In this document: positions 2,631-14,998 of the stretch, one piece after another
How positions within the stretch are numbered: the first letter of the stretch is position 1
How the letters are laid out: every line of letters begins with the position of its first letter
IMG/VR virus record: IMGVR_UViG_2585427768_000008
Span: 1 to 22,381 of that record
Length of the DNA stretch: 22,381 nucleotides
Origin: a virus
Lineage: Duplodnaviria; Heunggongvirae; Uroviricota; Caudoviricetes
Strand: one strand, 5' to 3'
Made by a program: the position numbers and the translations under genes
The notes under the pieces: model-generated
The model's input: only the letters and a program-made list of their open reading frames with translations
What the model was told of the DNA's origin: nothing
The model's database searches: none

Positions 2631-5600
2631 TTAATCCACTCCCACTTTTTTGTTGTACTCGCGGTTAAACCGATCCACGGCAACCTTCATATCCCGCTCT
2701 ACCGATTTCACCATCGCCGCCTGCTGCGCCAGACTGAGAGAACTGTCGGCATAAATGGCATCGCGCTGTTTGCGCAAATCCTTCAGTCTCTTCCGGGTAT
2801 CCTGCATAAGCCCGTTCATCAACAATTTTCCGTTGTTCTCGTCAATGAACGCCGTTCTTTCTGCACCGGTCAGACTCTTCAGCTCTGCGTGATACTGCGC
2901 AACCTCTGTCATCCGGTCGTACATCTTCTGCTGGTCTGCATACGGCATCACCTCACCCGAAATTTTCCCCAGGAAGGGCACCTGCTGTTCCGGTATATCA
3001 ATACCATTCAGCGATTTCACCGCCGCATCCGTGGTTTTGGAAATGAAGCGCCCTGTCCCTCCGGAGATATAGTCAATCCAGAATTTCAGCGATTCCGGTG
3101 TGATATCCACCGCGCCGGGACGATACTGGCTGCCACCTGAGAACGCATTCAGCCAGAATGCAAACGCCTTGTACGCTTCTGGCGTTGAACGTCTTCCCAG
3201 CTGGCTGTCAGGTTTTGGTGTACCAAACGGCATGTTCTCCTGGTAAATCTGCGCCCCCATGAAGTTTTCGTTCATGGCAAGATTCGCAAACGGACGCAGA
3301 ATTGTCGGTGCTGCATTTTTCAGCAATGCCCCCGACAACGTTTCCGACGTCTCGCTGCCGATCGGGCTGAATGCCCCCAGGATACCGCCGACAACATTAC
3401 CGGCAGCACGTGAAGCAGTCAGGTCGCCCGCTGCCACACCTTCAGCTGTATGACCAAGCAGGAAGAACACGTTGTACCCGTAAGGCAGAGGAATACTCCA
3501 GTACTCACCGGCCTTGCCCCCGAACATCGATTTCATGATGACGAGGTTACGCTCTTTCACATGAGACGGTACTTTGTCGTACCAGTTACCCCCGTCATCA
3601 TCCTCCCCCGCCACACTGCGGTTAAGCGAGCCAAGCAGATAACCCGCTCCCACAGCTGCAAGCACGATTTTCTGCGGTACATTGAGATTCTTCCAGCGAA
3701 GGCGCTCCAGTAACGGCCCGTCGCCATTAAGATGTCCGAGCGTTCTCACCAGGTTTGCGGTCCCCTGAATGCTGGCGTTGGCAAACATGTACAGCGAGTT
3801 CATCAGCATCCCCTGCTCACCACGACGGTTAAAGTTCACCGTCATGTTTTTGGCAAGAGACGCCGCCTGCTGGCGTGACAAACCGGCATCACGGGCGTGT
3901 TTATAGGCAGAAAGACGCAGAGCGTTTTCAACCGCGCCGTTGGCATCCTCGACCAGGTTCAGGAACGAATGCCATGCACCGATACTCTGGCCTTTCCATC
4001 CGCCCTTCGCCAGCGACACAAGGCGATCCATTTCCTTCTGCTGGCCCTCAAGGTCACCCATGTTAAACCAGCCGGTTTTACCTCCGTCCTCAACAAACTC
4101 TTTCCACACTTTCTGCCACTGTGCGCCTTTGCCCGTGAGGGTTTTACCCCGCAGACTTGCGTATACGGCTGACATGGCGGAACGGCTGTCTTTCACCACA
4201 GCCAGCGCGGATAAGTTATCCAGCTCTTTCAGTTTACCGTCGCTCCTTCCCTGCTCAGCCTTCAGGTTCATCACCGCAGTCTGCACGTCACGGATGAAGT
4301 TACTGACCAGAAATTCCGGGTTATACGACGTGTTCACCGTTGCCAGGAAGCGGTTAACTTTCCCCAGCGTACGGATTACGGCGTTACTGGTTTCCGGCCC
4401 CATGTTCTTCATCGCACGCATCAGGCGCGGATCATGAAGTTTAATGTAGTAAGTTTTGCCGTCCTTTTTGGTGGTGAAGTAGCGATCCGCCATCATTGCC
4501 ATCGGCACAGGGCGCTCGACAACTTCGCGAATGGTTTCACCAGTTTCCTGGTCCTTGCGCTCTGCAATCACACGCATTGTATCCGGTCTGTCATCAGTGA
4601 ATCCCTGCCAGTAATCCTTGTCGGGATTATCCTGTACCAGTTTCAGGAAGGCGTTACCCACTTCATTTTTGCGATTGCGGATCAGCGATTCACTCAAATC
4701 CTGTATCGCCTGAGTGGAAGGAGACTGTGCGCGGGATGCACGCCCCATGGCCTGCTTACTTTCACGCCCGCCGATGGTGAATCCCTTGCCTGTACGTGGC
4801 TGTGACACCACACCGTCAACATCCTGCCCTTTCAGGGGGACGTAGTAACGGTAGGCTTTCTGCCAGGCATCCACCACGCCGCTCTCTTCCAGTCCTGCCT
4901 CACGGATAATCTCACGGCGACGGGCCAGCATATCGTCAATAATCCCTGCCAGACGGTCATACTGTGCCTGTTTGCCGCTGTTACGCACACGCTGCATGAT
5001 TTCCGCCGCTTCCGCGTTGGTCATCCCCGAACCGCCGTCCGGCATTTTCGGGTTGATTTTCGCAATATGCACGTTACGTTCCGGCGCGTGACGGGCGTAG
5101 AGGTACTCATCCAGATCGGCCTGCGCAATTTTGTAGTCCGCCAGCAATTTGGCCAGCGGCTGAACGTAGCGCTCCTTCATTACGTTCAGGTCGTTTTCCG
5201 CCTTCCCGTGGAAGAGTTCTTCAGCCATATAGGCGTTATTGCTGTCATCTATTTTTCCGCCAGTTTTACGGATATTCTCCTGCACCGCCTTCAGCACCTG
5301 GAATTTATCCTGCATCTGGCGAACAAAACGGGATGCAATTGTCTCTTCCGGCGTCAGACTGCTGGTGCGGGAGTAATACGGCCCCTTGCGAATATCTTCA
5401 GGATAGAGTATTTTATCAACAGAGCCGCGATAAGAATGTTCCCCTTTGGGCAATTGGAGCCCTCTGTGCAGAAGGTTATCGCGGCTTAATTTTTCTCTCC
5501 GGTACAACGTTAAACCGGTCATTTCCATACTCTTCAGTTTTTTCCCGTTTTCCGTACCGTAAACAGATGCCACCTTGTTGATTTCCAGGCGCGACCGGAC

Positions 5601-8600
5601 AGCCTTCATGTGTACCGCTGACACCACCGGATCACCATTTTTATCCACGGCATCAAGCAGCATCACAACCGCGTTTCTTTCTGTCGCGGAACGGTAAATT
5701 GCATCCGGATCGTGCATCAGTTCCGGTAGTCTCTCGATAACATCCATCGGCACCACATGTTTCACACCATTGGTGGCCTTACGCACAGTGTCGCGGGAGA
5801 TAACCAGCGGCAAATCTGGTGCGCCAAGGTGACGCAATACCGGCGGCGTACGCCCGATGTTTACCGTTAAATCCGTTGAGCGCAGAGACTTCATCATTCT
5901 GGCAAGGTCATCACGATAACGCTCGCCCTCACCTTCCGGCACTTTGAACGGATCAGGCTTACCGCTACGGGAGTACTGAGACGATGCGTCCGCGCCATCC
6001 TCACGCGGCGTGTAACCTTCCCGCACACGCTGGCCTAACGTGCGAATAGTTTCGCGAACAAGTCTGATATCGTTCAGTTCCGTCGGCTTCAGTAACCCCG
6101 TACGACGCAGTACCCCTTTGACCAGGGCAACAACACGCTCCCATGCCGCCACGAATTTAATCGGCTGCTTCTCTGCCATATGCGCCAGAAATTCACCCGC
6201 CTGCACTTCCGGTGATTCCTTACCATAAGACGCATCAACCTTACGCCAGGCTTCACGGATGGTGGCGTTATCACTGTCACGGGTTTTCAGCACGGTCTTA
6301 ATAATCGTCTGATATTCCGCTGGCGTGACTACATGCTCCATTGCATGGTGAATAATCTCGTGACGTAACTTCTCGCGAACGGTCCGCCCGTCAGGGATGT
6401 TATCCGCCACCAGGACAATTTCACGTTTATCCGGACGATAGAACGCGTGCACCTTGCCGTAACCGTCGAATGATTCCCCCGCCAGTGCTTCAGCCTCTTT
6501 CTGTGACTTCACCACGCGGACCTTCAGGTCACTGTCCTTAATGCCACTAATCACGCCACGGGCAACAGCTTCAACCTGCGGGACCGGACTGCCTTTGGCT
6601 TCCGCACTACGGTTAACATCCGAAATCAGATTGCCTTCAGGTGTGCGGGTCACGCCCTTACGGGAATAAAACGCAACTCCCTTGTCCGTCTCACGGGTTT
6701 TCAGTGTTCGGAACAAGTGATCGAATGCCTCACGAATACCGCCATCCAGTTCTGCATTCGTCGGATAAGCGTAGGTGTCCGGCTGTCCATGGTCATCCGC
6801 CTTACGGATATTGACCAGATAATCATTCTCCACGCCAGCCATACGCGCTTTATCCTGAACATAACGCTCAAAGGCTCGCGCCGCCATTTCAACATCCGTT
6901 GACCAGTACGGTTTTGAACGAACGCCATCCAGGCGTTCAGAACGACGCAACATGTCACTGCTGTTAATGGCTTTCATCACGCCTTTAAACGCGTCGTAAA
7001 CCTCCTGACGTACCGGATATTCCGCATCAACATACCTGCCGTCTTTAAATACGCGCCCGGCACGCTGTGCTTCCGTCATATAGTCGCCACCTGACGTGAT
7101 CTTCCCGTCAGTGGAAACATCATAACGACCAAAATAATTATCCAGTGAATGGAACCATTCGTGGGCCAGCGCCCCCGGTCCGTTACCTTTTGTCAGGTTG
7201 ATTGCCACCTCACCCGGCTCATAGTGTGCCGCCGCCTTACCCTTACCACGGGCACCAAAAGCAAGCCCAAGACGACCGTTCAGAGAAAGCGCTTTTGTCG
7301 GCACGTTCAGCACGTCAGCCAGGTCATGCAGCGAGTCATAAGCCCGGTTCAAATCAGCCTGACGACGCGGACTTTCCACATAATTACCAAACTGCACACC
7401 ACGAAAACCAAACGCATCACTGAACTGCTCCGGCGAAACATCCCCCTTGCGGCGTTCTGGTCCGGTACGATCGCGGTTGGTGGCGTTACGCTGCTCCTCA
7501 CGCGAGACTTCACGCAGCGCCTTCACCTGATTAACCAGCTCATCACGATGTGTGCGCACATAATCATGTGCATCACGGGCAGACTCAAAACCGCCCTTCA
7601 GTTTCTGCCTGTTTTTGCCATAACCGATAAAAATGTCGCCACTGGCCTTATGCCGGTACACGTCAAAGGTTATTCTGTCATCAGCAGAGGTTGCTGGCGT
7701 TTCCCTTTCTCTGGAGCCTTGTTCATCGAAATATGCTTTCGCCTTTTTCAGTAACTCATCCCGGCTTTCCGAGAAAAAGAGGTCGCGCCCCTTGCTATCA
7801 CGAAGCGAATACATCATTTGCGGCGGATCGTAACGTTTTCCCCCGACAAACGAATAAACACCGGACCTGACACGATAGCCGGATGCTTTATCAATCTGCA
7901 ATGCAGAAAGCGTACGGAGCAGTTTCCAGGTATCCGACATGCTCCGTAACCCCGGCTTACTGTCCATCATATCAGCCAGTTTCGCTGCCGGAATTTTCCC
8001 CTCCAGCATACCGGCAGTAGCTTCGCGACCGCTTTTAACAATGCTGATCCATTTCTGCATGTTACGGCTTGTTCTGGTGGGAATTTCACTGCGATACAAC
8101 GCCATCATTGCCAGCGTGTCACTATCCACACCTTCTTTTTCCAGACGGGCATAATCCGGCTTTGGAAACAGTTTGCTCAGTGGTTGTGTCGCGTACTCCC
8201 CATCCTCCAGCGTTTTACCCATAGCTTCAGCAAGCTGCGCATAACGGTGTTTTGCCGCGCCCTTAATCTCCTCGCCAAAGTCTTCAATTTTCGCACCACG
8301 CGCCTGCTGGTGAGTGCTCGGTTTATCTACCGGCACCGGCACCTCAGTATCCGGAACATCGGTTATGGTCTGGCGATTATCCCCGGTCTGTCTGCGTGCT
8401 TCTGCCTGCTGTGCCAGTTCCGGAAGGGAGTCACGAACCATACGAGGGAGTGATTCAGGCTGTGGCATATCAACCCCACGCTGACTTTCAGGTGCAGGAA
8501 GACCTTCACGCACTGGTGCTGTGGCGTTCTGCTCATCCGGTGACGGCAGACCACGACGAACTGTTTCGCCCTCCAGTATTTCCCCCTGGCGACCAGCGGC

Positions 8601-10484
8601 ATTTTCCGGTGCCTGCGCACGTCCTTTCTGGAAACTCTGGCCCTTCACCTCACCGGTTGTGGTAAAACGACCACCACGTCCGGCCTGATTTTCATCCGGC
8701 GTACGCGCTACTTCTCCTGGTAACGGATATCCCTGTCCGGGATGAATATCGCCGGGAGCGGGAAGGCGTGGACGCTCAGTTAACTCCTGTGCTGTCGGAC
8801 CGGCATCACCTTCAGCCATCTGGGAACGCACCAGTTCTTCCGCCGTCGGCGCGTTGCCACGAGCAAGACGGGCCTGCACTTCTGTATCATCCCCCGTAAA
8901 ACCACGGAATCGCGGGTCACGCATGAACGCGGGCTGTTCCATCGGATCAGCATCAGTAATACGCTCTCCGTCAGCCAGAGTGTTAATGGTCTCCGTTGCC
9001 ACATCTTCAGAGAACGCAGGATTATCCATTTCAACGGCATACTGATTCTCGCCTTTCTTCACTACGGACGGTTTCAGGCCGGTGGCGCTGGCATTGCGGA
9101 AAACGTCGCTCCCCAGAGCACTTTTTTCATCCGTGAAATAACGGTTGTCCGGACGCACCTTTTCAATGCGTTCTGCTGGTCTGGACGCACCACTCTCGTT
9201 AATTTCAATACGAACTTCATCCGGATCGCGGAACCGCACCGTCGGGTAAATACTCCCGTCGCCATCATCCGCATTTTCCGGCTGTGGCTGTGCCTCCGGT
9301 CTGGCCTCCCGCTGAGGGCGAAGCACATCACGTATTGCCTGTAACTGCTGCTCTTCAGTATCAGTACGCCCTTCCTTCTGGCTGAGTTTTCGGTATTCCT
9401 CAAGCAGTTCAGGGCGCGGCTTCGCCTTCAGCTCATCCATCACCGCCTGTCGCTTCGCCTGTTCATCCAGTTCATTCAACAGCTGGCTGGCGGCTTCCCG
9501 GCGATGAACGGCAGACGTGTCTCCCTCATGTGCCATATCCGCATCAGCATACTGTTCCAGAAGCTGCTCGCGATTCATCCCCTGCATAGATTCACGATGC
9601 TGTGCCACCGGATCAACCGGTTCGGGTTGCGGAGCCGATTCGTCCTGAGGAACGCTTTCAGCCTCACGCATGGCTGCTTCATCTGCCGCCTGACGTTTTC
9701 CACGATATCCGGCAGCCGCACCGAATGGTGCCCCCATTGCAGCACCAAGGGCTGCACCTTCGATCGTTGCGTCAGCCACGCCCTCCCACGGTGACACATC
9801 CATTCCGGCGGTCTCACGCAATGCCGTGTTTTCCTGATAGCGTGAATAGCCACCCTGCGCCGCATTAATCGTCCCCTGTTCCGTGGCATTTCTGACAATG
9901 CCGCTTTTAACGGTCTTCGCCGTGCCCCGCATCGCCAGATTAAGCAACTGAGCATCGCCCAGTTTTGCCGCCATGGCATTCACAGCCAGCAATTCAGGAT
10001 CGGTTGCCAGCTGCGCACGCACCTCATCGGCAACACGCTCTTTTGCCAGGTCCATTTTCTGGCGGTCAGTAAGCTGCGCGTGCTGCGGATCTGCATCAAT
10101 TGACAAAAAGGTCTGCTGAAATTTCGGTGACTTCGCCAGCTCAGAATAATCCGCGTTAAGAACAGCATCTGCCGCTGCCATTGCACTCCGCCCTTGCGCA
10201 CTGACAGTGGAATGGGTGATCAGGCCTGCCTGGAAAAAATCCGGCATTTTTTTATCGACAGCTTCGGCTGCCAGTGCTGTGGCTCTTTCCGGCTGCATCC
10301 CTGCCGCGATGTATTTTTTCTCCAGCCCGGCGGTCAGCACTTTTCGCAGAGTGACATCACCCAGCTTTTTAGTCACACCGCCTGCAACCATATCCGGTAC
10401 AAGCGCACCAATCAGGTTAACTCCACAAGCCTTCGCAACTTCAGGGATGCCGACACCTTTAATCGGCTCATCAAGATTTTGCAT
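2631..10484 (-). CDS. giant multidomain protein (about 2617 aa) with zincin-like HExxH motifs; function unknown, possibly polyvalent-protein-like
   Basis: Uninterrupted 7.9-kb ORF on the minus strand. Preferred start is ATG at 10484 (AAGGA 7 nt upstream); the track start at 10517 has no RBS. HEWFH encoded at 7149-7163 and RHEIIHHAMEH at about 6334-6363. No Walker A or methyltransferase motifs seen. GC content visibly higher than the neighbouring AT-rich operon. Confidence 0.9.
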   Translation of the reverse strand: MQNLDEPIKGVGIPEVAKACGVNLIGALVPDMVAGGVTKKLGDVTLRKVLTAGLEKKYIAAGMQPERATALAAEAVDKKMPDFFQAGLITHSTVSAQGRSAMAAADAVLNADYSELAKSPKFQQTFLSIDADPQHAQLTDRQKMDLAKERVADEVRAQLATDPELLAVNAMAAKLGDAQLLNLAMRGTAKTVKSGIVRNATEQGTINAAQGGYSRYQENTALRETAGMDVSPWEGVADATIEGAALGAAMGAPFGAAAGYRGKRQAADEAAMREAESVPQDESAPQPEPVDPVAQHRESMQGMNREQLLEQYADADMAHEGDTSAVHRREAASQLLNELDEQAKRQAVMDELKAKPRPELLEEYRKLSQKEGRTDTEEQQLQAIRDVLRPQREARPEAQPQPENADDGDGSIYPTVRFRDPDEVRIEINESGASRPAERIEKVRPDNRYFTDEKSALGSDVFRNASATGLKPSVVKKGENQYAVEMDNPAFSEDVATETINTLADGERITDADPMEQPAFMRDPRFRGFTGDDTEVQARLARGNAPTAEELVRSQMAEGDAGPTAQELTERPRLPAPGDIHPGQGYPLPGEVARTPDENQAGRGGRFTTTGEVKGQSFQKGRAQAPENAAGRQGEILEGETVRRGLPSPDEQNATAPVREGLPAPESQRGVDMPQPESLPRMVRDSLPELAQQAEARRQTGDNRQTITDVPDTEVPVPVDKPSTHQQARGAKIEDFGEEIKGAAKHRYAQLAEAMGKTLEDGEYATQPLSKLFPKPDYARLEKEGVDSDTLAMMALYRSEIPTRTSRNMQKWISIVKSGREATAGMLEGKIPAAKLADMMDSKPGLRSMSDTWKLLRTLSALQIDKASGYRVRSGVYSFVGGKRYDPPQMMYSLRDSKGRDLFFSESRDELLKKAKAYFDEQGSRERETPATSADDRITFDVYRHKASGDIFIGYGKNRQKLKGGFESARDAHDYVRTHRDELVNQVKALREVSREEQRNATNRDRTGPERRKGDVSPEQFSDAFGFRGVQFGNYVESPRRQADLNRAYDSLHDLADVLNVPTKALSLNGRLGLAFGARGKGKAAAHYEPGEVAINLTKGNGPGALAHEWFHSLDNYFGRYDVSTDGKITSGGDYMTEAQRAGRVFKDGRYVDAEYPVRQEVYDAFKGVMKAINSSDMLRRSERLDGVRSKPYWSTDVEMAARAFERYVQDKARMAGVENDYLVNIRKADDHGQPDTYAYPTNAELDGGIREAFDHLFRTLKTRETDKGVAFYSRKGVTRTPEGNLISDVNRSAEAKGSPVPQVEAVARGVISGIKDSDLKVRVVKSQKEAEALAGESFDGYGKVHAFYRPDKREIVLVADNIPDGRTVREKLRHEIIHHAMEHVVTPAEYQTIIKTVLKTRDSDNATIREAWRKVDASYGKESPEVQAGEFLAHMAEKQPIKFVAAWERVVALVKGVLRRTGLLKPTELNDIRLVRETIRTLGQRVREGYTPREDGADASSQYSRSGKPDPFKVPEGEGERYRDDLARMMKSLRSTDLTVNIGRTPPVLRHLGAPDLPLVISRDTVRKATNGVKHVVPMDVIERLPELMHDPDAIYRSATERNAVVMLLDAVDKNGDPVVSAVHMKAVRSRLEINKVASVYGTENGKKLKSMEMTGLTLYRREKLSRDNLLHRGLQLPKGEHSYRGSVDKILYPEDIRKGPYYSRTSSLTPEETIASRFVRQMQDKFQVLKAVQENIRKTGGKIDDSNNAYMAEELFHGKAENDLNVMKERYVQPLAKLLADYKIAQADLDEYLYARHAPERNVHIAKINPKMPDGGSGMTNAEAAEIMQRVRNSGKQAQYDRLAGIIDDMLARRREIIREAGLEESGVVDAWQKAYRYYVPLKGQDVDGVVSQPRTGKGFTIGGRESKQAMGRASRAQSPSTQAIQDLSESLIRNRKNEVGNAFLKLVQDNPDKDYWQGFTDDRPDTMRVIAERKDQETGETIREVVERPVPMAMMADRYFTTKKDGKTYYIKLHDPRLMRAMKNMGPETSNAVIRTLGKVNRFLATVNTSYNPEFLVSNFIRDVQTAVMNLKAEQGRSDGKLKELDNLSALAVVKDSRSAMSAVYASLRGKTLTGKGAQWQKVWKEFVEDGGKTGWFNMGDLEGQQKEMDRLVSLAKGGWKGQSIGAWHSFLNLVEDANGAVENALRLSAYKHARDAGLSRQQAASLAKNMTVNFNRRGEQGMLMNSLYMFANASIQGTANLVRTLGHLNGDGPLLERLRWKNLNVPQKIVLAAVGAGYLLGSLNRSVAGEDDDGGNWYDKVPSHVKERNLVIMKSMFGGKAGEYWSIPLPYGYNVFFLLGHTAEGVAAGDLTASRAAGNVVGGILGAFSPIGSETSETLSGALLKNAAPTILRPFANLAMNENFMGAQIYQENMPFGTPKPDSQLGRRSTPEAYKAFAFWLNAFSGGSQYRPGAVDITPESLKFWIDYISGGTGRFISKTTDAAVKSLNGIDIPEQQVPFLGKISGEVMPYADQQKMYDRMTEVAQYHAELKSLTGAERTAFIDENNGKLLMNGLMQDTRKRLKDLRKQRDAIYADSSLSLAQQAAMVKSVERDMKVAVDRFNREYNKKVGVD

Positions 10485-10562
10485 AGGGATATCCTTTTTC
10501 GTACTTTCAGTACGCATTATGATTGAACTGAAAGTTTTTGCAAGTGCTTTAGTATCGTACTC
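10485..10562. promoter_or_regulatory. divergent promoter/operator switch region between giant gene and cI-like repressor
   Basis: Minus-strand promoter TTGCAA (10538-10543), 16-nt spacer, CATAAT (complement of 10516-10521). Perfect 15-bp palindrome CGTACTTTCAGTACG (10500-10514) just downstream of the -10; inverted partial copy ACTGAAAGT (10527-10535). A third CGTAC-N5-GTTCA element (10556-10570) overlaps the cI start. cI has no Shine-Dalgarno; TAGTAT (10550-10555) lies 7 nt before its ATG, suggesting a leaderless transcript as for lambda pRM. Confidence 0.5.
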
Positions 10563-11270
10563 ATGGTTCAGAATGAAAAAGTGCGCAAAGAATTCGCCCA
10601 GCGGCTAGCGCAAGCCTGTAAAGAAGCTGGTCTTGATGAACATGGTAGGGGAATGGCTATAGCCCGTGCCCTTTCTCTTTCGTCCAAAGGCGTTAGCAAA
10701 TGGTTTAATGCTGAGTCTTTACCGCGTCAGGAAAAAATGAATGCGCTTGCGAAATTTCTAAACGTTGATGTTGTTTGGCTTCAGCACGGCACTTCGTTAA
10801 ATGGAGCGAATGATGAAGATACTCTTTCATTTGTTGGCAAATTAAAAAAAGGGTTAGTGCGCGTGGTTGGTGAGGCAATTCTTGGTGTTGATGGTGCCAT
10901 CGAGATGACCGAAGAGCGCGATGGGTGGCTCAAAATTTATAGCGATGATCCAGATGCCTTTGGCCTTCGTGTGAAAGGAGACAGCATGTGGCCCAGAATA
11001 AAATCAGGAGAATATGTACTCATTGAGCCTAACACCAAAGTATTCCCGGGTGATGAGGTGTTTGTCAGAACCGTTGAAGGACACAACATGATTAAGGTTC
11101 TTGGCTATGACAGAGATGGAGAATACCAATTTACAAGCATTAACCAGGATCACAGGCCTATAACGTTGCCTTATCATCAAGTAGCAAAGGTGGAGTATGT
11201 AGCTGGTATTCTGAAGCAATCTCGCCATCTGGATGACATCGAGGCAAGGGAGTGGCTGAAAAGTTCGTGA
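10563..11270 (+). CDS. cI: CI-like prophage repressor (N-terminal HTH, C-terminal S24 LexA-like peptidase)
   Basis: 235-aa ORF. N-terminal HTH-like segment (GMAIARALSLSSKGVSKWFN) and C-terminal GDSMWP serine motif with a downstream conserved lysine (MIKVLG), as in LexA/CI autocleaving repressors. Position and orientation match cI relative to the pL operon. Confidence 0.88.
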   Translation: MVQNEKVRKEFAQRLAQACKEAGLDEHGRGMAIARALSLSSKGVSKWFNAESLPRQEKMNALAKFLNVDVVWLQHGTSLNGANDEDTLSFVGKLKKGLVRVVGEAILGVDGAIEMTEERDGWLKIYSDDPDAFGLRVKGDSMWPRIKSGEYVLIEPNTKVFPGDEVFVRTVEGHNMIKVLGYDRDGEYQFTSINQDHRPITLPYHQVAKVEYVAGILKQSRHLDDIEAREWLKSS

Positions 11271-11330
11271 CTTCATCGTCACATAGCTGGTAACCAGTGG
11301 CCAGAAGAAACGTTTGGGTGAGGAGGATAG

Positions 11331-11672
11331 ATGGCGTTCACTGACCTTGAATATCAAGCGGTCAAAAAAGAAGTTCACCAATTCATTGAAAGCATAAGGC
11401 CGCCTGAACATATCCGCAATGAACTGGATATTGTTTATAGCATCAATGACCAAACGATAGATATCGGCGAACAGCGCCCCGTGTGGCAGGGCAACCCAGG
11501 TGAAACAAACATCCTGCCATCAGCAAGAATCAAGTACATACGTTCTCTGGATAGATGGAAAATCTATTGGATGCGGAAGGATATGAAATGGCATCAGTAC
11601 AGTACTGAACTTTCGCTGACTGATGCGCTTGAGCTTGTGCGTGCTGACCCGGATTGCTGCTTCTTCGGATGA
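11331..11672 (+). CDS. hypothetical protein, first gene downstream of cI
   Basis: 113-aa ORF with strong RBS GAGGAGG before the ATG; same strand as cI and no terminator between them. No recognisable motifs. Confidence 0.6.
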   Translation: MAFTDLEYQAVKKEVHQFIESIRPPEHIRNELDIVYSINDQTIDIGEQRPVWQGNPGETNILPSARIKYIRSLDRWKIYWMRKDMKWHQYSTELSLTDALELVRADPDCCFFG

Positions 11673-11739
11673 GTGAAGAGACGTTTGGATGATGGATGGT
11701 CGCAGAGATGCGGCCTGATTCTAAAATAGGATATAAAAA

Positions 11740-12201
11740 ATGAGAATACTAGGTGTTAGAGCGGCGCCCAAAGTTACATCTTTTGTTGTATATTGCACTA
11801 ATGAGTCTGCACTCAAATGTGTTGATGTTATTAAAATACCTTCGACCTTAGACACACCAGAAAAATTAAAGTATGTGAGAAATAACATCCTCGACATTCT
11901 TAATTTATATAATGTTGAATTAGCTGCCATACGCGTTACTGAATCAAACTCTGATAATCTTAGCATTGACCGCCTTTATATAGAAGCTGTTATTCAAGAA
12001 GCATTTTCAAGCAGTGATGTAAGAAAATATTACACTATTAGAAAATCTGGCATGAAATCATCATTGAACCTAACAGAGATCGAGTATAAAGAAATATTGA
12101 AGTCACACCGCAATATAAATGGAATCGATAATTCTGGTTTTACAACTGAAACAAATGAAGCTGTTTTGGCTGCTCTATCTGCGGAGGTAAGGGGATGCTA
12201 A
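11740..12201 (+). CDS. hypothetical protein, upstream partner of Ser/Thr kinase
   Basis: 153-aa ORF in a markedly AT-rich segment; AGGA upstream of the ATG; 3' end overlaps the kinase start by 7 nt. No recognisable motifs. Confidence 0.6.
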   Translation: MRILGVRAAPKVTSFVVYCTNESALKCVDVIKIPSTLDTPEKLKYVRNNILDILNLYNVELAAIRVTESNSDNLSIDRLYIEAVIQEAFSSSDVRKYYTIRKSGMKSSLNLTEIEYKEILKSHRNINGIDNSGFTTETNEAVLAALSAEVRGC

Positions 12202-13241
12202 CTCCATACAAAAGAGCTGATGTAGAATTCGAATGGATTAGTGATCTAGAAGAACAGGGTTGTTTTTCAAAAGTATATCTGGCTCATGACAGACACCTAG
12301 CTCATGACTTGGTGATTAAAGAAATAGAAAAAAAAGAAAACACTAACCACGACGACTACTTTAATGAAGCAAGGCTTCTCTATAAACATGCACATCCAAA
12401 TATTGTGCAAGTTCAGTATGCTGCTCAATGTGAGAGCAATATCTATATAGCCATGCCATTTTATCATAATGGTTCGCTAAACCAATTAATGAAAAAAAAT
12501 AATCTTACAAGCAGGGAGATAATACGGTATTCCATTCAATTTTTAAGTGGACTTTATCATATACACTCAAAAGGTCTTATGCATTTTGATATAAAACCTA
12601 ATAACATTATGATATCAAACAGAAATGAGGCCATGCTATCTGACTTTGGATTATCTCAGTTAGTCAATGAGGAATCGAGAGCTGCGCCTGAGTTTGGATA
12701 TCATTTTCATGTGCCACCGGAATATTTTTCTTTATCAACAAATGATTATAATTTCACATATGACATATATCAGGCAGGATTAACCATATATAGAATGTGT
12801 GTTGGACATGATAATTTTGAAAGAGAAAGATCTGCATTTAGCACGATTGAACAACTCAGAGAGTCGATAATTAATGGCTGCTATCCATTAAAAGAGTATC
12901 CTCCCCATATACATAAAAAATTAATAACAATAGTGAACAAATGCATTCATGTAGATCCAAATGAAAGATATCAATCCGTACTAGATGTACTAAACGATCT
13001 CTCAGCTATAAGTGATGGCGTTCTTGACTGGCGTCTACAGATGACGAAACCAACTAACGGCACATGCGAATGGCAAAAAAAGTCTGGGGACGCTATACTG
13101 TCTATAGTTTTTGACGCAGAAAATTCGTCTACTACTGGTTTTCGTTTATACGATGATGGGCGGAAAAGGCGTGCTACGAACTTAACAATATCCTCAGGAT
13201 GTACCCCTACAAAACTGTATAGGTTATTAAAGGATAACTGA
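12195..13241 (+). CDS. eukaryotic-like (Hanks-type) Ser/Thr protein kinase
   Basis: 348-aa ORF with GGAGG 7 nt upstream. Kinase subdomain motifs in order: glycine-rich-like loop EQGCFSKVY, VIK lysine, catalytic loop HFDIKPNN (about 12583-12606), DFG (12642-12650), PPE (APE-like), DIYQAG. AT-rich. Confidence 0.85.
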   Translation: MLTPYKRADVEFEWISDLEEQGCFSKVYLAHDRHLAHDLVIKEIEKKENTNHDDYFNEARLLYKHAHPNIVQVQYAAQCESNIYIAMPFYHNGSLNQLMKKNNLTSREIIRYSIQFLSGLYHIHSKGLMHFDIKPNNIMISNRNEAMLSDFGLSQLVNEESRAAPEFGYHFHVPPEYFSLSTNDYNFTYDIYQAGLTIYRMCVGHDNFERERSAFSTIEQLRESIINGCYPLKEYPPHIHKKLITIVNKCIHVDPNERYQSVLDVLNDLSAISDGVLDWRLQMTKPTNGTCEWQKKSGDAILSIVFDAENSSTTGFRLYDDGRKRRATNLTISSGCTPTKLYRLLKDN

Positions 13242-13243
13242 TC

Positions 13244-13408
13244 ATGAAAAAGCGCGAGGAAGTAAGCAAGCTGCCTCGCAGACGTGATGCAGCATTAGCG
13301 GTTCCCTACAAAAAAGATGAGTTCATAAGCCCTTCTGATGACAAAAAATTTTCAAAGGCGAAAAGTTTTACATCTACATCTCTAAAAGATAAATACTTTA
13401 AAATCTAG
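13244..13408 (+). CDS. small basic protein (54 aa), translationally coupled to kinase
   Basis: ATG at 13244, 2 nt after the kinase stop, with AAGGA upstream; stop TAG 13406-13408 directly precedes the terminator. Not in the supplied ORF track (below its length cutoff); read by hand. Confidence 0.35.
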   Translation: MKKREEVSKLPRRRDAALAVPYKKDEFISPSDDKKFSKAKSFTSTSLKDKYFKI

Positions 13409-13434
13409 CCCGGCCTCAGCGCCGGGTTTTCTTT
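13409..13434 (+). terminator. rho-independent terminator ending the cI/kinase operon (tIMM-like)
   Basis: CCCGGC (13409-13414), 6-nt loop, GCCGGG (13421-13426), followed by TTTTCTTT. Confidence 0.7.
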
Positions 13435-13605
13435 GCCTCACGATCCCCCACCTAAAAAAACATAACTCATTGTATTTATTGATGTAACTCGCTAAACCAT
13501 GCAGTTCTGATCCCTGCCGCATAACCTTCATCAGCCACATTTTCAAAAATAAATTTCCTTATATATCAGAATCATACTTCGTAGAGTTAATAAATCACCA
13601 AAATT

Positions 13606-13650
13606 CGTACCAATAGTTCTTGATAATGTCGAACTATTGGTTCACTATTA
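13606..13650 (+). promoter_or_regulatory. candidate pL-like promoter with inverted-repeat operator
   Basis: 11-bp inverted repeat ACCAATAGTTC (13609-13619) / GAACTATTGGT (13631-13641) with 11-bp spacer containing TTGATA (13620-13625, -35-like); weak -10-like CACTAT at 13643-13648. CGTAC-N5-GTTCT at 13606-13620 resembles elements in the cI switch region. Confidence 0.4.
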
Positions 13651-13717
13651 TCGTCATCAGCAGGACGCATTACTCACCAGGGCGGTGAATATACAACGAT
13701 TCGAATATGAATCTACG

Positions 13718-13732
13718 GCGCTGACAAAGCGC
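13718..13732 (+). promoter_or_regulatory. nutL-like boxB RNA hairpin (P22 type)
   Basis: GCGCT GACAA AGCGC: 5-bp stem with GACAA pentaloop, the boxB form I recall for phage P22. Lies between the pL-like promoter and the N-like gene. No convincing boxA found upstream. Confidence 0.6.
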
Positions 13733-13742
13733 AATAACCAAA

Positions 13743-13885
13743 GTGAACTTTGGGGTGTGGTGAAGGGTTCATGGACGGGAATATGTCGCACGTAAAGCGG
13801 CGAGGCCTGTGGGACTATTGCCGAATTGAAGTAGGCCGAAACAGGTCGAAATGGGTCTCCCACCTACCACACCACCAAAGTTCAT
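13743..13885 (+). other. long-range helix in the N-like gene leader (possible RNase III-type processing or translational control structure)
   Basis: TGAACTTTGG (13744-13753) and GTGTGGT (13755-13761) pair with ACCACAC (13867-13873) and CCAAAGTTCA (13876-13885), about 17 bp with one bulge, enclosing about 105 nt. The helix ends 1 nt before the AGGAGG Shine-Dalgarno (13887-13892). Confidence 0.4.
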
Positions 13886-13897
13886 CAGGAGGTCTAT

Positions 13898-14998
13898 ATG
13901 ACACGCAGAACTCAGTTCAAAGGCAATTCACGTTCTCGTCGTCGTGAGCGTTTAAAGGCAAAGGCATTAGCTAACTGCGTACTGGCCCGCGAAGAAGCAA
14001 TAAGTTCAGAAGTATTACACCGCCCTACTCTAAGCAGAGCGCAGATTCAGGCTAAAGGTACTCACGAAACGCCTGAGCGCATAGAAGACGCTAAGCCAAT
14101 TAAGTTCATGGCACAGGACGTGATCTGGCAACAGAAAGAATACAGACGCAATCTGGAGCGAGCAGCCATTGTGTACGCGAATGAGTTTGGACATAAGCAA
14201 CCAGAAACTGGTGTATGTCTTCCAAACGTAGCCATTTACGCGGCAGGCTACCGGAAATCAAAACAACTGACGGCGAGGGGATTGATGACCACGCCTTCAG
14301 TTTTGCCGCAAAAGTTATGGCGTCCGCTTGCAGAGATTAAAAACTTCGTTGAAAAAATGCCTGATGGAGTTCGCCTTACGGAAGTTACTAAAAAAGTTAA
14401 GACATTTGCCGAACTGTCAGGAAAGGAGAGAAACCAGCTCATAGATTTTATCGATAAACGGGAAAGCATCATTGTATTTAAGGTCAGAAAAGAAGGTTCT
14501 GGTAACGGAGTAACCTTTTTCCGCCACAAAAAATATGGATATCCCAAACGGGAAGGAAACGTCACAATCACTAAGGACCTTCAATCAAAATTATGTACCA
14601 GATGCGGGCAGACAAAATCAGTCAATGATTTTTATTCAGATGCCAGCAAGCGTGACGGGAGAGCCATTTATTGCAAGAAGTGCGAATCTGCAATGAAACG
14701 CTCACGCAGAAAATGCAACAAATTAATTCTGCAACAACAGGAACCTGAAATGAATAACCTCAAAGCAGTTTCACCTTCACCAGAAATACTCAGAAAACAG
14801 GCTGAAGAATTGCTGAAAGCCGCCGAAATTGCGGAGAAAAAACGCCAGGAAGATGATGCATTCAACAAAAAACTTGCGCCCTTAAAACTTGAAATCCTTC
14901 AGGCCGCCGGAAAAATGCAGCTTAAACTGGACGAATTCATCGACTGTATGGATGAAATGAATAAAGCAGTTCAGAAGCTTAAAGAGCTGACCGCCTGA
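13898..14998 (+). CDS. N-like transcription antiterminator with arginine-rich N-terminus, extended by a CxxC...CxxC zinc-ribbon and coiled-coil C-terminal region
   Basis: 366-aa ORF, AGGAGG 5 nt upstream. N-terminus KGNSRSRRRERLKAKALAN resembles the arginine-rich motif of the P22 N protein (recalled as GNAKTRRHERRRKLAIER) and pairs with the P22-type boxB upstream. CTRCGQ...CKKCES motif near residue 250. Much longer than typical N proteins. Confidence 0.6.
   Translation: MTRRTQFKGNSRSRRRERLKAKALANCVLAREEAISSEVLHRPTLSRAQIQAKGTHETPERIEDAKPIKFMAQDVIWQQKEYRRNLERAAIVYANEFGHKQPETGVCLPNVAIYAAGYRKSKQLTARGLMTTPSVLPQKLWRPLAEIKNFVEKMPDGVRLTEVTKKVKTFAELSGKERNQLIDFIDKRESIIVFKVRKEGSGNGVTFFRHKKYGYPKREGNVTITKDLQSKLCTRCGQTKSVNDFYSDASKRDGRAIYCKKCESAMKRSRRKCNKLILQQQEPEMNNLKAVSPSPEILRKQAEELLKAAEIAEKKRQEDDAFNKKLAPLKLEILQAAGKMQLKLDEFIDCMDEMNKAVQKLKELTA

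What the first reader, a model, noticed from the sequence alone, without database searches (positions are those of the whole stretch)
10500..13620. Recurrent CGTAC-N5-GTNC(N) elements at both candidate early promoters
Three sites share the pattern: CGTACTTTCAGTACG (10500-10514, perfect palindrome at the giant-gene promoter), CGTACTCATGGTTCA (10556-10570, overlapping the cI start codon) and CGTACCAATAGTTCT (13606-13620, at the pL-like promoter). Centre-to-centre spacing of the first site and the partial copy at 10527-10535 is about 24 bp, like lambda OR1-OR2. This would fit one repressor controlling the giant gene, its own synthesis and pL, but the right half-sites are degenerate, so it is a hypothesis.
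Basis: inference. Interest (0 to 1): 0.5.

Follow-up and report, generated by a model that had tools for sequence, protein, structure and literature searches.

The report
Known phage 933W repressor operator sites
The repeated CGTAC…GTNC elements are the already published binding sites of the phage 933W CI repressor at its two early promoters, sitting here in a deletion-crippled prophage, so the finding is correct but not new.

Summary
Window 10418-13900 is about 99.4% identical to the immunity region of Shiga-toxin phage 933W. The 235-aa repressor is 100% identical to 933W CI.
- 10500-10514 is OR1.
- The "partial copy" at 10527-10535 is the core of OR2 (10524-10538).
- 10556-10570 is OR3.
- 13606-13620 is OL2.

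All five 15-mers are identical to those of 933W, whose repressor binding has been measured (Koudelka and Friedman labs; PMC3317979).

The true motif is a 15-bp dyad, N-G-(A/T)-A-C-(T/C)-N-(A/T)-N-(A/G)-G-T-(A/T)-C-N. The "degenerate" GTTC halves are in fact the consensus.

The "giant-gene promoter" is simply pR. A ~36.7-kb deletion has fused the first 22 codons of cro in frame to a truncated LPD5/LPD38 giant gene, which normally lies at the far end of the late region. The prophage also has a lost N stop codon and a unique change in the pL -10.

Novelty: already known. Interest: low.

The parts
10500..10514 (.). OR1, CGTACTTTCAGTACG. It is the highest-affinity CI operator and covers the pR start region just downstream of the pR -10.
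   Evidence: It coincides with 'operator oR1' of AF125520 (window coordinate = L002 coordinate + 8917). It is identical in 933W, Stx2 phage I, phi24B and ES5. It differs from the published consensus at positions 3, 7' and 3', as PMC3317979 states.
10524..10538 (.). OR2, TGAACTGAAAGTTTT. It lies in the spacer between the pR -35 and -10. It is the only operator with a half-site that has A instead of G at position 2.
Evidence: Annotated as oR2 in AF125520 and KU238068 and identical across comparators.
10556..10570 (.). OR3, CGTACTCATGGTTCA. It overlaps the pRM start point and the cI ATG, and it auto-represses cI.
   Evidence: Annotated as oR3 in AF125520 and HM208303 and identical across comparators. 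Among 15 distinct OR variants from IMG/VR, variation in OR3 occurs only at positions 3, 7, 3' and, in one variant, 4'.
13606..13620 (.). OL2, CGTACCAATAGTTCT. It abuts the pL -35.
   Evidence: It is the reverse complement of the 'OL2 repressor binding site' of EF517298 and is identical in 933W, phi24B and ES5.
13630..13644 (.). OL1, CGAACTATTGGTTCA. It lies between the pL -35 and -10.
   Evidence: It is the reverse complement of the 'OL1 repressor binding site' of EF517298 and an exact dyad-motif match. It lies 24 bp centre-to-centre from OL2. With OL2 it forms the 11-bp inverted repeat 13609-13619 / 13631-13641.
10516..10543 (-). pR: -35 TTGCAA at 10543-10538, a 16-nt spacer, and -10 CATAAT at 10521-10516. 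In this window it drives the cro'-giant gene fusion.
   Evidence: Found by the promoter scan and annotated as pR in AF125520, HM208303 and AP004402.
10528..10555 (+). pRM (putative): -35-like CTGAAA and -10 TAGTAT. The annotated start is at 10562, which makes the cI mRNA essentially leaderless.
   Evidence: Taken from the GenBank annotation of 933W and phi24B. It matches 8 of 12 consensus positions, below the scanner's threshold, as expected for a promoter that needs activation.
13620..13648 (+). pL (inferred): -35 TTGATA at 13620-13625, a 17-nt spacer, and -10 CACTAT at 13643-13648. The -10 is CATTAT in 933W.
   Evidence: Read from the sequence. The -35 TTG is kept in all 29 OL variants. The base at 13645 is T or A in all 94 comparators and C only here. 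Similarity to prophages of other immunity types starts at about 13655.
10563..11270 (+). cI, the 235-aa repressor of 933W immunity. It has an HTH N-terminal domain (S41, K42, K46 in the recognition helix) and an S24 autocleavage C-terminal domain.
   Evidence: 100% identical to AAD25430. Pfam families HTH_3 and Peptidase_S24.
11331..13408 (+). Genes co-transcribed with cI from pRM: DUF3024 (11331-11672), a RuvC-like protein (11740-12201), the Stk kinase (12195-13241) and a 54-aa ORF (13244-13408).
   Evidence: Annotation of 933W, phi24B and ES5 and the Pkinase Pfam hit.
13407..13428 (+). tM, the intrinsic terminator that ends the pRM operon upstream of OL.
   Evidence: Found by the terminator scan and annotated as tM in AF125520.
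2631..10484 (-). A hybrid ORF of 2617 aa. The first ~22 codons are cro, fused in frame to the LPD5/LPD1/MuF_C/LPD38 giant protein lacking its first ~186 codons.
   Evidence: The native gene is 2784 aa and lies downstream of the tail genes.
10418..10424 (.). Deletion junction with TAAC microhomology between cro and the giant gene. About 36.7 kb is missing relative to the intact ES5 prophage.
   Evidence: Three-way alignment and BLAST end points. Searches show the deleted genes.

Best explanation
The elements are the five operator sites of the phage 933W CI repressor: OR1, OR2 and OR3 between cro and cI, and OL2 and OL1 at pL.

Each site is a 15-bp rotationally symmetric sequence, N-G-(A/T)-A-C-(T/C)-N-(A/T)-N-(A/G)-G-T-(A/T)-C-N. 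It is read by the helix-turn-helix of a CI dimer, with S41, K42 and K46 contacting positions 2 to 5.

In a lysogen the sites work as follows:
- CI on OR1 and OR2 occludes pR.
- CI on OL1 and OL2 occludes pL.
- CI on OR2 activates pRM.
- CI on OR3, which covers the pRM start and the cI ATG, auto-represses cI.

Unlike lambda, the published data say that binding is non-cooperative. They give relative dissociation constants of OR1 : OR2 : OR3 = 1 : 13.6 : 26.4 (larger = weaker binding). There is no OL3, and the order of occupancy is set by intrinsic affinity. RecA-stimulated self-cleavage of the S24 domain lifts repression.

What is shown here: sequence identity of the repressor and of all five sites to the experimentally studied phage, their positions relative to the promoters, and their conservation in relatives. 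Binding and regulation in this particular strain are inferred from the literature on identical sequences.

In this window the switch is crippled. cro is cut after codon 22 and fused to a truncated giant gene. pR therefore now drives that fusion, and there is no Cro and no lytic pathway.
For: - Window 10418-13900 matches 933W and many Stx phages at 99.3-99.5% identity, and three E. coli chromosomes at 100%.
- CI is 235/235 identical to 933W CI.
- The GenBank features oR1, oR2 and oR3 of AF125520, KU238068 and PV189402 map exactly to 10500-10514, 10524-10538 and 10556-10570.
- OL1 and OL2 of EF517298 map to 13630-13644 and 13606-13620.
- All five 15-mers are identical to those of 933W.
- PMC3317979 describes five natural 15-bp symmetric operators. 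In that description, positions 4 and 5 are invariant A and C. Position 2 is G except in one OR2 half-site. Position 6 is T in 7 of 10 half-sites and C in 3. The centre is A/T. OR1 departs from consensus at 3, 7' and 3'. Every one of these statements holds for the five window sequences.
- The dyad motif occurs 4 times against 0.15 expected, and only in the two control regions.
- Of 119 IMG/VR loci picked by their OR1 and OR2 cores, all 96 with enough flank have a pair of sites 24 bp apart, 1.0-3.1 kb downstream. This holds whatever cargo lies between (94 exact, 2 with one mismatch).
- The inter-operator spacers vary freely, apart from the -35 TTG.
- The recognition-helix residues (S/T41, K42 in all but one variant that has R, K46) persist even where N-terminal-domain identity drops to 64%.
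- Salmonella phage SI5 (CI 88% identical) keeps all five sites, with changes only at the tolerated positions 1 and 3.
Against: - No binding experiment was or could be done on this strain.
- The primary papers that mapped the sites (Tyler 2004, Koudelka 2004, Bullwinkle 2011) are not held in the library. The actual operator sequences are therefore taken from GenBank feature tables plus the textual description in PMC3317979, not from the original figures.
- The comparative set was selected with the OR1 and OR2 cores, and OL was detected with the motif itself. Conservation of those particular positions is therefore partly built in by the way the loci were chosen.
- The pRM hexamers are only annotated as putative.
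Confidence: 0.97

Rival explanations
1. The recurrence is a chance or compositional effect. GTAC- and GAAC-containing words happen to lie near AT-rich intergenic regions, and there is no common binding protein.
For: The loose pattern GWACN5GTWC also hits five places outside the control regions: 1312, 3465, 3789, 12978 and 21247. With one mismatch allowed, the refined motif gives 9 hits against 4.7 expected, which is only mildly enriched.
Against: The refined motif gives 4 exact hits against 0.15 expected, all at promoters. The sites are identical to annotated and experimentally studied operators. Number, spacing and position are conserved in 96 of 96 relatives.
Confidence: 0.01
2. The real operator at pL is the 11-bp inverted repeat 13609-13641, acting as one long palindrome bound by a single protein unit. 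On this view the CGTAC elements are incidental.
For: ACCAATAGTTC (13609-13619) and GAACTATTGGT (13631-13641) are perfectly complementary.
Against: The two arms are the inner 11 bp of two separate 15-bp dyads, OL2 and OL1. Each is internally symmetric and each is annotated as a separate repressor site. In relatives the two sites diverge independently, so the long repeat breaks while each dyad is kept, for example CGTACTTATGGTACT...TGTACTATTGGTTCA. OR has the same dyads without any such long repeat.
Confidence: 0.01
3. The giant gene is a native early gene with its own repressor-controlled promoter. This would be a new regulatory target of the repressor rather than pR-cro.
For: In the window the giant ORF starts 16 bp from OR1 and is the first gene transcribed from that promoter.
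Against: - The first 22 codons and the ribosome-binding site are those of 933W cro, and similarity to cro stops at 10418-10424, where similarity to the interior of the giant gene begins.
- In intact prophages the gene is 2784 aa, starts 560 bp further on, and lies 36.7 kb away behind the tail genes.
- No other genome in the collections searched carries the junction.
Confidence: 0.03
4. The OR1 palindrome acts as an RNA hairpin or terminator rather than as a protein-binding site.
For: The terminator scan flags 10500-10514 on the + strand.
Against: The stem is only 6 bp with 3 G-C pairs, and the tail CATTATGATT is not a T-run. The + strand here lies upstream of the pRM start, so it is not normally transcribed in that sense. 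The sequence is a documented operator.
Confidence: 0.01

Closest known systems
Operator regions OR (OR1-OR3) and OL (OL1-OL2) of Shiga-toxin phage 933W and of phages with the same immunity (phi24B, Stx2 phage I, Stx2 phage 86)
   Same: The repressor is 100% identical. All five 15-bp operators are identical in sequence, order and spacing: 24 and 32 bp at OR, 24 bp at OL. The cI-DUF3024-ruvC-like-stk operon, tM, nutL and the start of N are the same.
   Different: Three single-base differences lie outside the operators in OR (10488, 10515, 10522), and ES5 shares them. One unique base differs in the pL -10 (13645). cro is truncated and fused to the giant gene, so the Cro half of the switch is missing.
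Phage lambda OR/OL and CI
   Same: The logic and layout are the same. Divergent pR and pRM have three operators, and pL has its own operators. cI is followed by exclusion genes and a terminator before pL. OR1-OR2 spacing is 24 bp. The cI mRNA is leaderless. The repressor has an S24 autocleavage domain. (The lambda features are from established knowledge.)
   Different: The sites are 15 bp rather than 17 bp, with an unrelated sequence. There are only two OL sites. Published work reports no cooperative binding to adjacent sites and no role for an OL-OR loop in pRM control (PMC3317979, PMC5977221). OR2-OR3 spacing is 32 bp, and OR3 lies over the pRM start.
Immunity region of Salmonella P22-like phage SI5 (MK972695)
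   Same: CI is 88% identical with the same recognition helix. All five operators sit at the same relative positions, and OR2 is identical.
   Different: Operator changes occur at position 1 (OR1, OL2) and position 3 (OR3, OL1). The cargo between cI and pL is different. A degenerate extra OL-like site is present (L011 5565-5579). The morphogenetic backbone is different (Lederbergvirus).

Membership tests
933W-immunity CI operators (OR1-3, OL1-2) | The cognate repressor is 933W CI, with an HTH recognition helix carrying S41, K42 and K46. | tested here: met
   235/235 identical to AAD25430. Residues 41-46 are SKGVSK.
933W-immunity CI operators (OR1-3, OL1-2) | Each site is a 15-bp rotationally symmetric sequence. 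Positions 4 and 5 are A and C in all ten half-sites. Position 2 is G in nine of ten. Position 6 is T (7) or C (3). The central pair is A/T. | tested here: met
   The five window sequences were checked against the description in PMC3317979, and every count agrees.
933W-immunity CI operators (OR1-3, OL1-2) | The sequences and positions are identical to the operators annotated in reference records. | tested here: met
   oR1, oR2 and oR3 of AF125520. OL1 and OL2 of EF517298.
933W-immunity CI operators (OR1-3, OL1-2) | There are three sites at OR overlapping pR and pRM, and two sites at OL overlapping pL, with no OL3. | tested here: met
   Searches find no further site near 13560-13600. The literature states that 933W has no OL3 (PMC5977221).
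933W-immunity CI operators (OR1-3, OL1-2) | The repressor binds the sites directly, and repression of pR and pL is shown. | not testable with these tools
   Published for identical sequences (PMC3317979 and its references 8, 11 and 12). Not done for this strain.
Lambda-type cooperative tripartite operators | 17-bp operators, three at OL as well as at OR, and pairwise cooperative binding of repressor dimers. | tested here: not met
   The sites are 15 bp and OL has only two. Non-cooperativity comes from the literature only. The system therefore works like lambda in outline but is not a member of lambda immunity.

The most novel reading that the evidence does not exclude
The deletion that put a Cro(1-22)::LPD5/LPD38 giant-protein fusion directly under pR/OR, with an intact CI and Stk, might not be mere decay. 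It could be a retained, SOS-inducible module of a domesticated prophage, giving immunity to 933W-type Stx phages plus damage-induced expression of a polyvalent giant protein. Alternatively, the sixth near-site inside stk (12977-12991) could be a genuine weak CI site.
Probability: 0.04. Interest if true: 0.35.

Novelty: already known. Interest (0 to 1): 0.08.

Why it matters
It matters little as a discovery. The 933W switch has been dissected biochemically since 2004, because it controls Shiga toxin release.

As annotation it has some use. It identifies the window as a 933W-immunity prophage remnant that should still make CI. Its host would therefore probably be immune to superinfection by 933W-type Stx phages, while the remnant itself cannot produce phage. 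It also shows that reading the sequence alone can recover real operators, apart from the missed OL1 and the misreading of the consensus half-site as degenerate.

Tried and rejected
- I tried to read the primary mapping papers: Tyler 2004 (PMC524894), Koudelka 2004 (PMC524892) and Bullwinkle 2011 (PMC3133280). None is held. PMC3317979 has no supplementary files held. I therefore relied on GenBank feature tables and on the text of PMC3317979 and PMC5977221.
I replaced it with a scan using the exact OR1 and OR2 cores. This biases the set toward this immunity type.
- The junction 28-mer was not found in IMG/VR or in the GTDB representative genomes.
- The five extra GWACN5GTWC hits were considered as possible additional operators and rejected. 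Each has A or G at position 6 in at least one half-site, which the published mutagenesis says binds poorly, and none lies at a promoter.
- A third OL site was looked for about 32 bp upstream of OL2 and is absent in the window.
- The terminator-like call on OR1 was rejected as an artefact of the palindrome.
Full report
**1. What is in the sequence.**
The three quoted 15-mers are at the stated coordinates:
- CGTACTTTCAGTACG at 10500-10514.
- CGTACTCATGGTTCA at 10556-10570, which spans the ATG of the 235-aa ORF 10563-11270.
- CGTACCAATAGTTCT at 13606-13620.

The "partial copy" at 10527-10535 (ACTGAAAGT) is the reverse complement of the centre of the first site. It is the core of a full 15-bp site, TGAACTGAAAGTTTT, at 10524-10538.

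One of those five lies inside the kinase gene.

A motif refined from the real half-sites, GWACYNNNRGTWC, occurs exactly 4 times against 0.15 expected. None of 100 shuffles reaches 4. All four matches lie in the two intergenic control regions. One of them is new: CGAACTATTGGTTCA at 13630-13644, 24 bp centre-to-centre from 13606-13620. OR2 appears once one mismatch is allowed.

One small correction: the first site is not a perfect palindrome. It has 6-bp complementary arms around a non-symmetric TTC centre.

**2. What the region is.**
Window 10418-13900 matches phage 933W, phi24B, Stx2 phage I, Stx2 phage 86 and dozens of other Stx phages at 99.3-99.5% identity. It matches three E. coli chromosomes at 100%.

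The 235-aa protein is identical over all 235 residues to 933W CI. Downstream lie the 933W genes L0084 (DUF3024), L0083 (RuvC-like), stk and L0081, then the terminator tM, nutL and N.

With the offset window = L002 + 8917, the GenBank features of 933W place the operators as follows:
- oR1 at 10500-10514.
- oR2 at 10524-10538.
- oR3 at 10556-10570.

The same features appear in KU238068, PV189402 and HM208303.

The phi24B immunity-region record EF517298 annotates OL1 as TGAACCAATAGTTCG and OL2 as AGAACTATTGGTACG. Their reverse complements are window 13630-13644 and 13606-13620.

Alignments show that all five 15-mers are identical in the window, 933W, Stx2 phage I, phi24B and the ES5 prophage.

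The 11-bp inverted repeat 13609-13619 / 13631-13641 is simply the shared inner part of OL2 and OL1, which lie in opposite orientation.

**3. Agreement with the published biochemistry.**
Bullwinkle et al. 2012 (PMC3317979) describe five naturally occurring 933W operators, each 15 bp long and rotationally symmetric. Their description makes these statements:
- The consensus half-site is C-G-A-A-C-T.
- Positions 4 and 5 are invariant (A, C).
- Position 6 is T in 7 of 10 half-sites and C in the other three.
- Position 8 is A/T.
- OR1 is the tightest site and differs from consensus at positions 3, 7' and 3'.

Writing out the ten half-sites of the five window sequences reproduces every one of these statements:
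- OR1: CGTACTT / CGTACTG
- OR2: TGAACTG / AAAACTT
- OR3: CGTACTC / TGAACCA
- OL2: CGTACCA / AGAACTA
- OL1: CGAACTA / TGAACCA

The same paper assigns base contacts to S41, K42 and K46. The window protein has S41-K42-G-V-S-K46.

GTAC (T at position 3) is the non-consensus variant, and it binds more tightly.

The literature also reports the following (PMC3317979; PMC5977221):
- 933W repressor does not bind OR1 and OR2 cooperatively.
- The relative dissociation constants in intact OR are 1 : 13.6 : 26.4 for OR1 : OR2 : OR3 (larger = weaker binding).
- There is no OL3.
- Partial occupancy of OR3 keeps repressor levels low.

The lambda-like 24-bp spacing is real, but it does not carry lambda-like cooperativity.

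**4. Anatomy relative to the promoters.**
- pR is TTGCAA (10543-10538), a 16-nt spacer, then CATAAT (10521-10516) on the minus strand. OR2 fills the spacer. OR1 covers the region just downstream of the -10, around the expected start.
- pRM is annotated at 10528-10555 (-10 TAGTAT) with its start at 10562, one base before the cI ATG. OR3 therefore covers the pRM start.
- I infer pL as TTGATA (13620-13625), a 17-nt spacer, then CACTAT (13643-13648). OL1 lies in the spacer and OL2 abuts the -35. Similarity to prophages of other immunity types begins at about 13655, which fits that point being the edge of the immunity module.

**5. Comparative check.**
These give 16 distinct OR variants.

OR3 was not part of the search pattern. 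Among the 15 OR variants that can be compared without an indel, OR3 varies only at positions 3, 7 and 3', plus one variant at 4'. By contrast, 6 of 9 columns of the OR1-OR2 spacer vary, and 8 of 17 columns of the OR2-OR3 spacer vary.

Downstream of cI, 94 loci have an exact pair of dyads with 24-bp spacing. The pair lies 1.0-3.1 kb from OR, depending on the cargo genes. The only two loci with long flanks that lacked an exact pair have one with a single mismatch. Every one of the 96 loci with enough sequence therefore has the OL pair. The other 23 loci without a pair end too soon after OR.

There are 29 OL variants. The 9-bp spacer between the sites is highly variable apart from the -35 TTG, whereas each dyad is kept.

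The N-terminal domain of CI is 64-100% identical in these loci, and in some the C-terminal domain has been swapped. Even so, the recognition helix stays (S/T)-K-(G/A)-V-S-K-W, with one variant that has R at position 42.

Salmonella P22-like phage SI5 (CI 88% identical) keeps the five sites. Its changes fall only at positions 1 and 3, which the mutagenesis shows are tolerated.

There is one caveat. Because the loci were selected with the OR1 and OR2 cores and OL was detected with the motif, conservation of those exact positions is partly built in by the selection. The informative results are the presence, number and spacing of the sites and the contrast with the spacers.

**6. The "giant gene".**
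The giant ORF (2631-10484, minus strand, 2617 aa from the cro ATG) carries LPD5, LPD1, MuF_C and LPD38 domains.

In intact prophages (FORC_069, ES5) the gene is 2784 aa. It lies downstream of the tail genes, 36.7 kb from cro.

In the window, similarity to the giant gene ends at 10418-10424 and similarity to 933W cro starts there. The three-way alignment shows a crossover in a TAAC microhomology. The join is in frame, so Cro residues 1-22 are fused to the giant protein lacking about 186 N-terminal residues.

The following are all missing relative to the intact ES5 prophage, which is inserted in ynfG:
- the rest of cro, and cII;
- the replication genes, the nin region and Q;
- the lysis genes, terminase, portal and capsid;
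- the tail genes.

The exact fusion protein is on record in one NCBI assembly, GCA_000713355.1, contig JORV01000119.1, well inside a 101-kb contig. The junction is absent from 5,426 complete E. coli genomes, from IMG/VR and from the GTDB representative genomes. A 4-bp overlap could not have joined the two regions through a k-mer assembly error, so a real deletion is the likely cause. Read-level confirmation was not possible.

The "giant-gene promoter" is therefore pR. The statement that the repressor controls the giant gene is true here only as an accident of the deletion.

**7. Other signs of decay.**
The N stop codon is GGA here instead of TGA, so N reads through into the next ORF and gives the 366-aa ORF 13898-14998. 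All 23 comparators with this N allele keep TGA or TAA.

The third base of the inferred pL -10 is C here (13645). It is T or A in all 94 comparators.

**8. Verdict.**
- the motif definition;
- the missed OL1;
- the false alternative with the inverted repeat;
- no cooperativity despite the lambda-like spacing;
- the giant gene is a deletion fusion.

The system is the well-characterised 933W genetic switch, so its novelty is "already known" and its interest is low. The only non-trivial residue is the crippled state of this particular prophage.

Noticed in passing
window 10418-10424 (junction); hybrid ORF 2631-10484, minus strand: A ~36.7-kb deletion with TAAC microhomology fuses cro codons 1-22 in frame to codon ~187 of the LPD5/LPD38 giant gene. 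It removes cII, the replication genes, Q, the lysis genes and all head and tail genes. The prophage is defective and pR now drives the fusion. The junction was found only in assembly GCA_000713355.1.
   Followed up: yes
window 14279-14281 (ORF 13898-14998): The stop codon of the antiterminator gene N is GGA instead of TGA. N (127 aa) therefore reads through into the next ORF as a 366-aa fusion. All 23 comparators with this allele keep a stop codon.
   Followed up: partly
window 13645: A T-to-C change turns the inferred pL -10 from CATTAT into CACTAT. None of the 94 related loci has C at this position. It is possibly a promoter-down mutation in the decaying prophage.
   Followed up: partly
window 12977-12991: CGTACTAGATGTACT inside the stk coding sequence resembles an operator. 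However, it has A at position 6' and G at the centre, and published mutagenesis disfavours both. It is probably chance.
   Followed up: partly
window 1312, 3465, 3789 and 21247: There are four further GWAC-N5-GTWC dyads outside the immunity region. Counting 12978, that makes five extra hits against about 0.7 expected. Each has a disfavoured base at position 6 in at least one half-site, and none lies at a promoter. The mild excess is unexplained.
   Followed up: no
L011 5565-5579 (Salmonella phage SI5): A degenerate third OL-like site, CGTACTAAAAGGACA, lies 33 bp upstream of OL2 in a P22-like phage with 933W-type immunity. It could be an OL3 remnant that 933W itself lacks.
   Followed up: no
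window 10488, 10515 and 10522: Three single-base differences from 933W lie in the cro ribosome-binding region and on either side of the pR -10 hexamer. The intact ES5 prophage shares them, so they mark a natural OR allele (34 of 119 IMG/VR loci) and are not part of the decay.
   Followed up: partly
IMG/VR loci (for example those with CI of 222-245 aa and 36-46% overall identity): Some repressors keep the 933W-type N-terminal DNA-binding domain and operators but carry an unrelated C-terminal domain. This shows that the two repressor domains are exchanged between phages as separate modules.
   Followed up: partly
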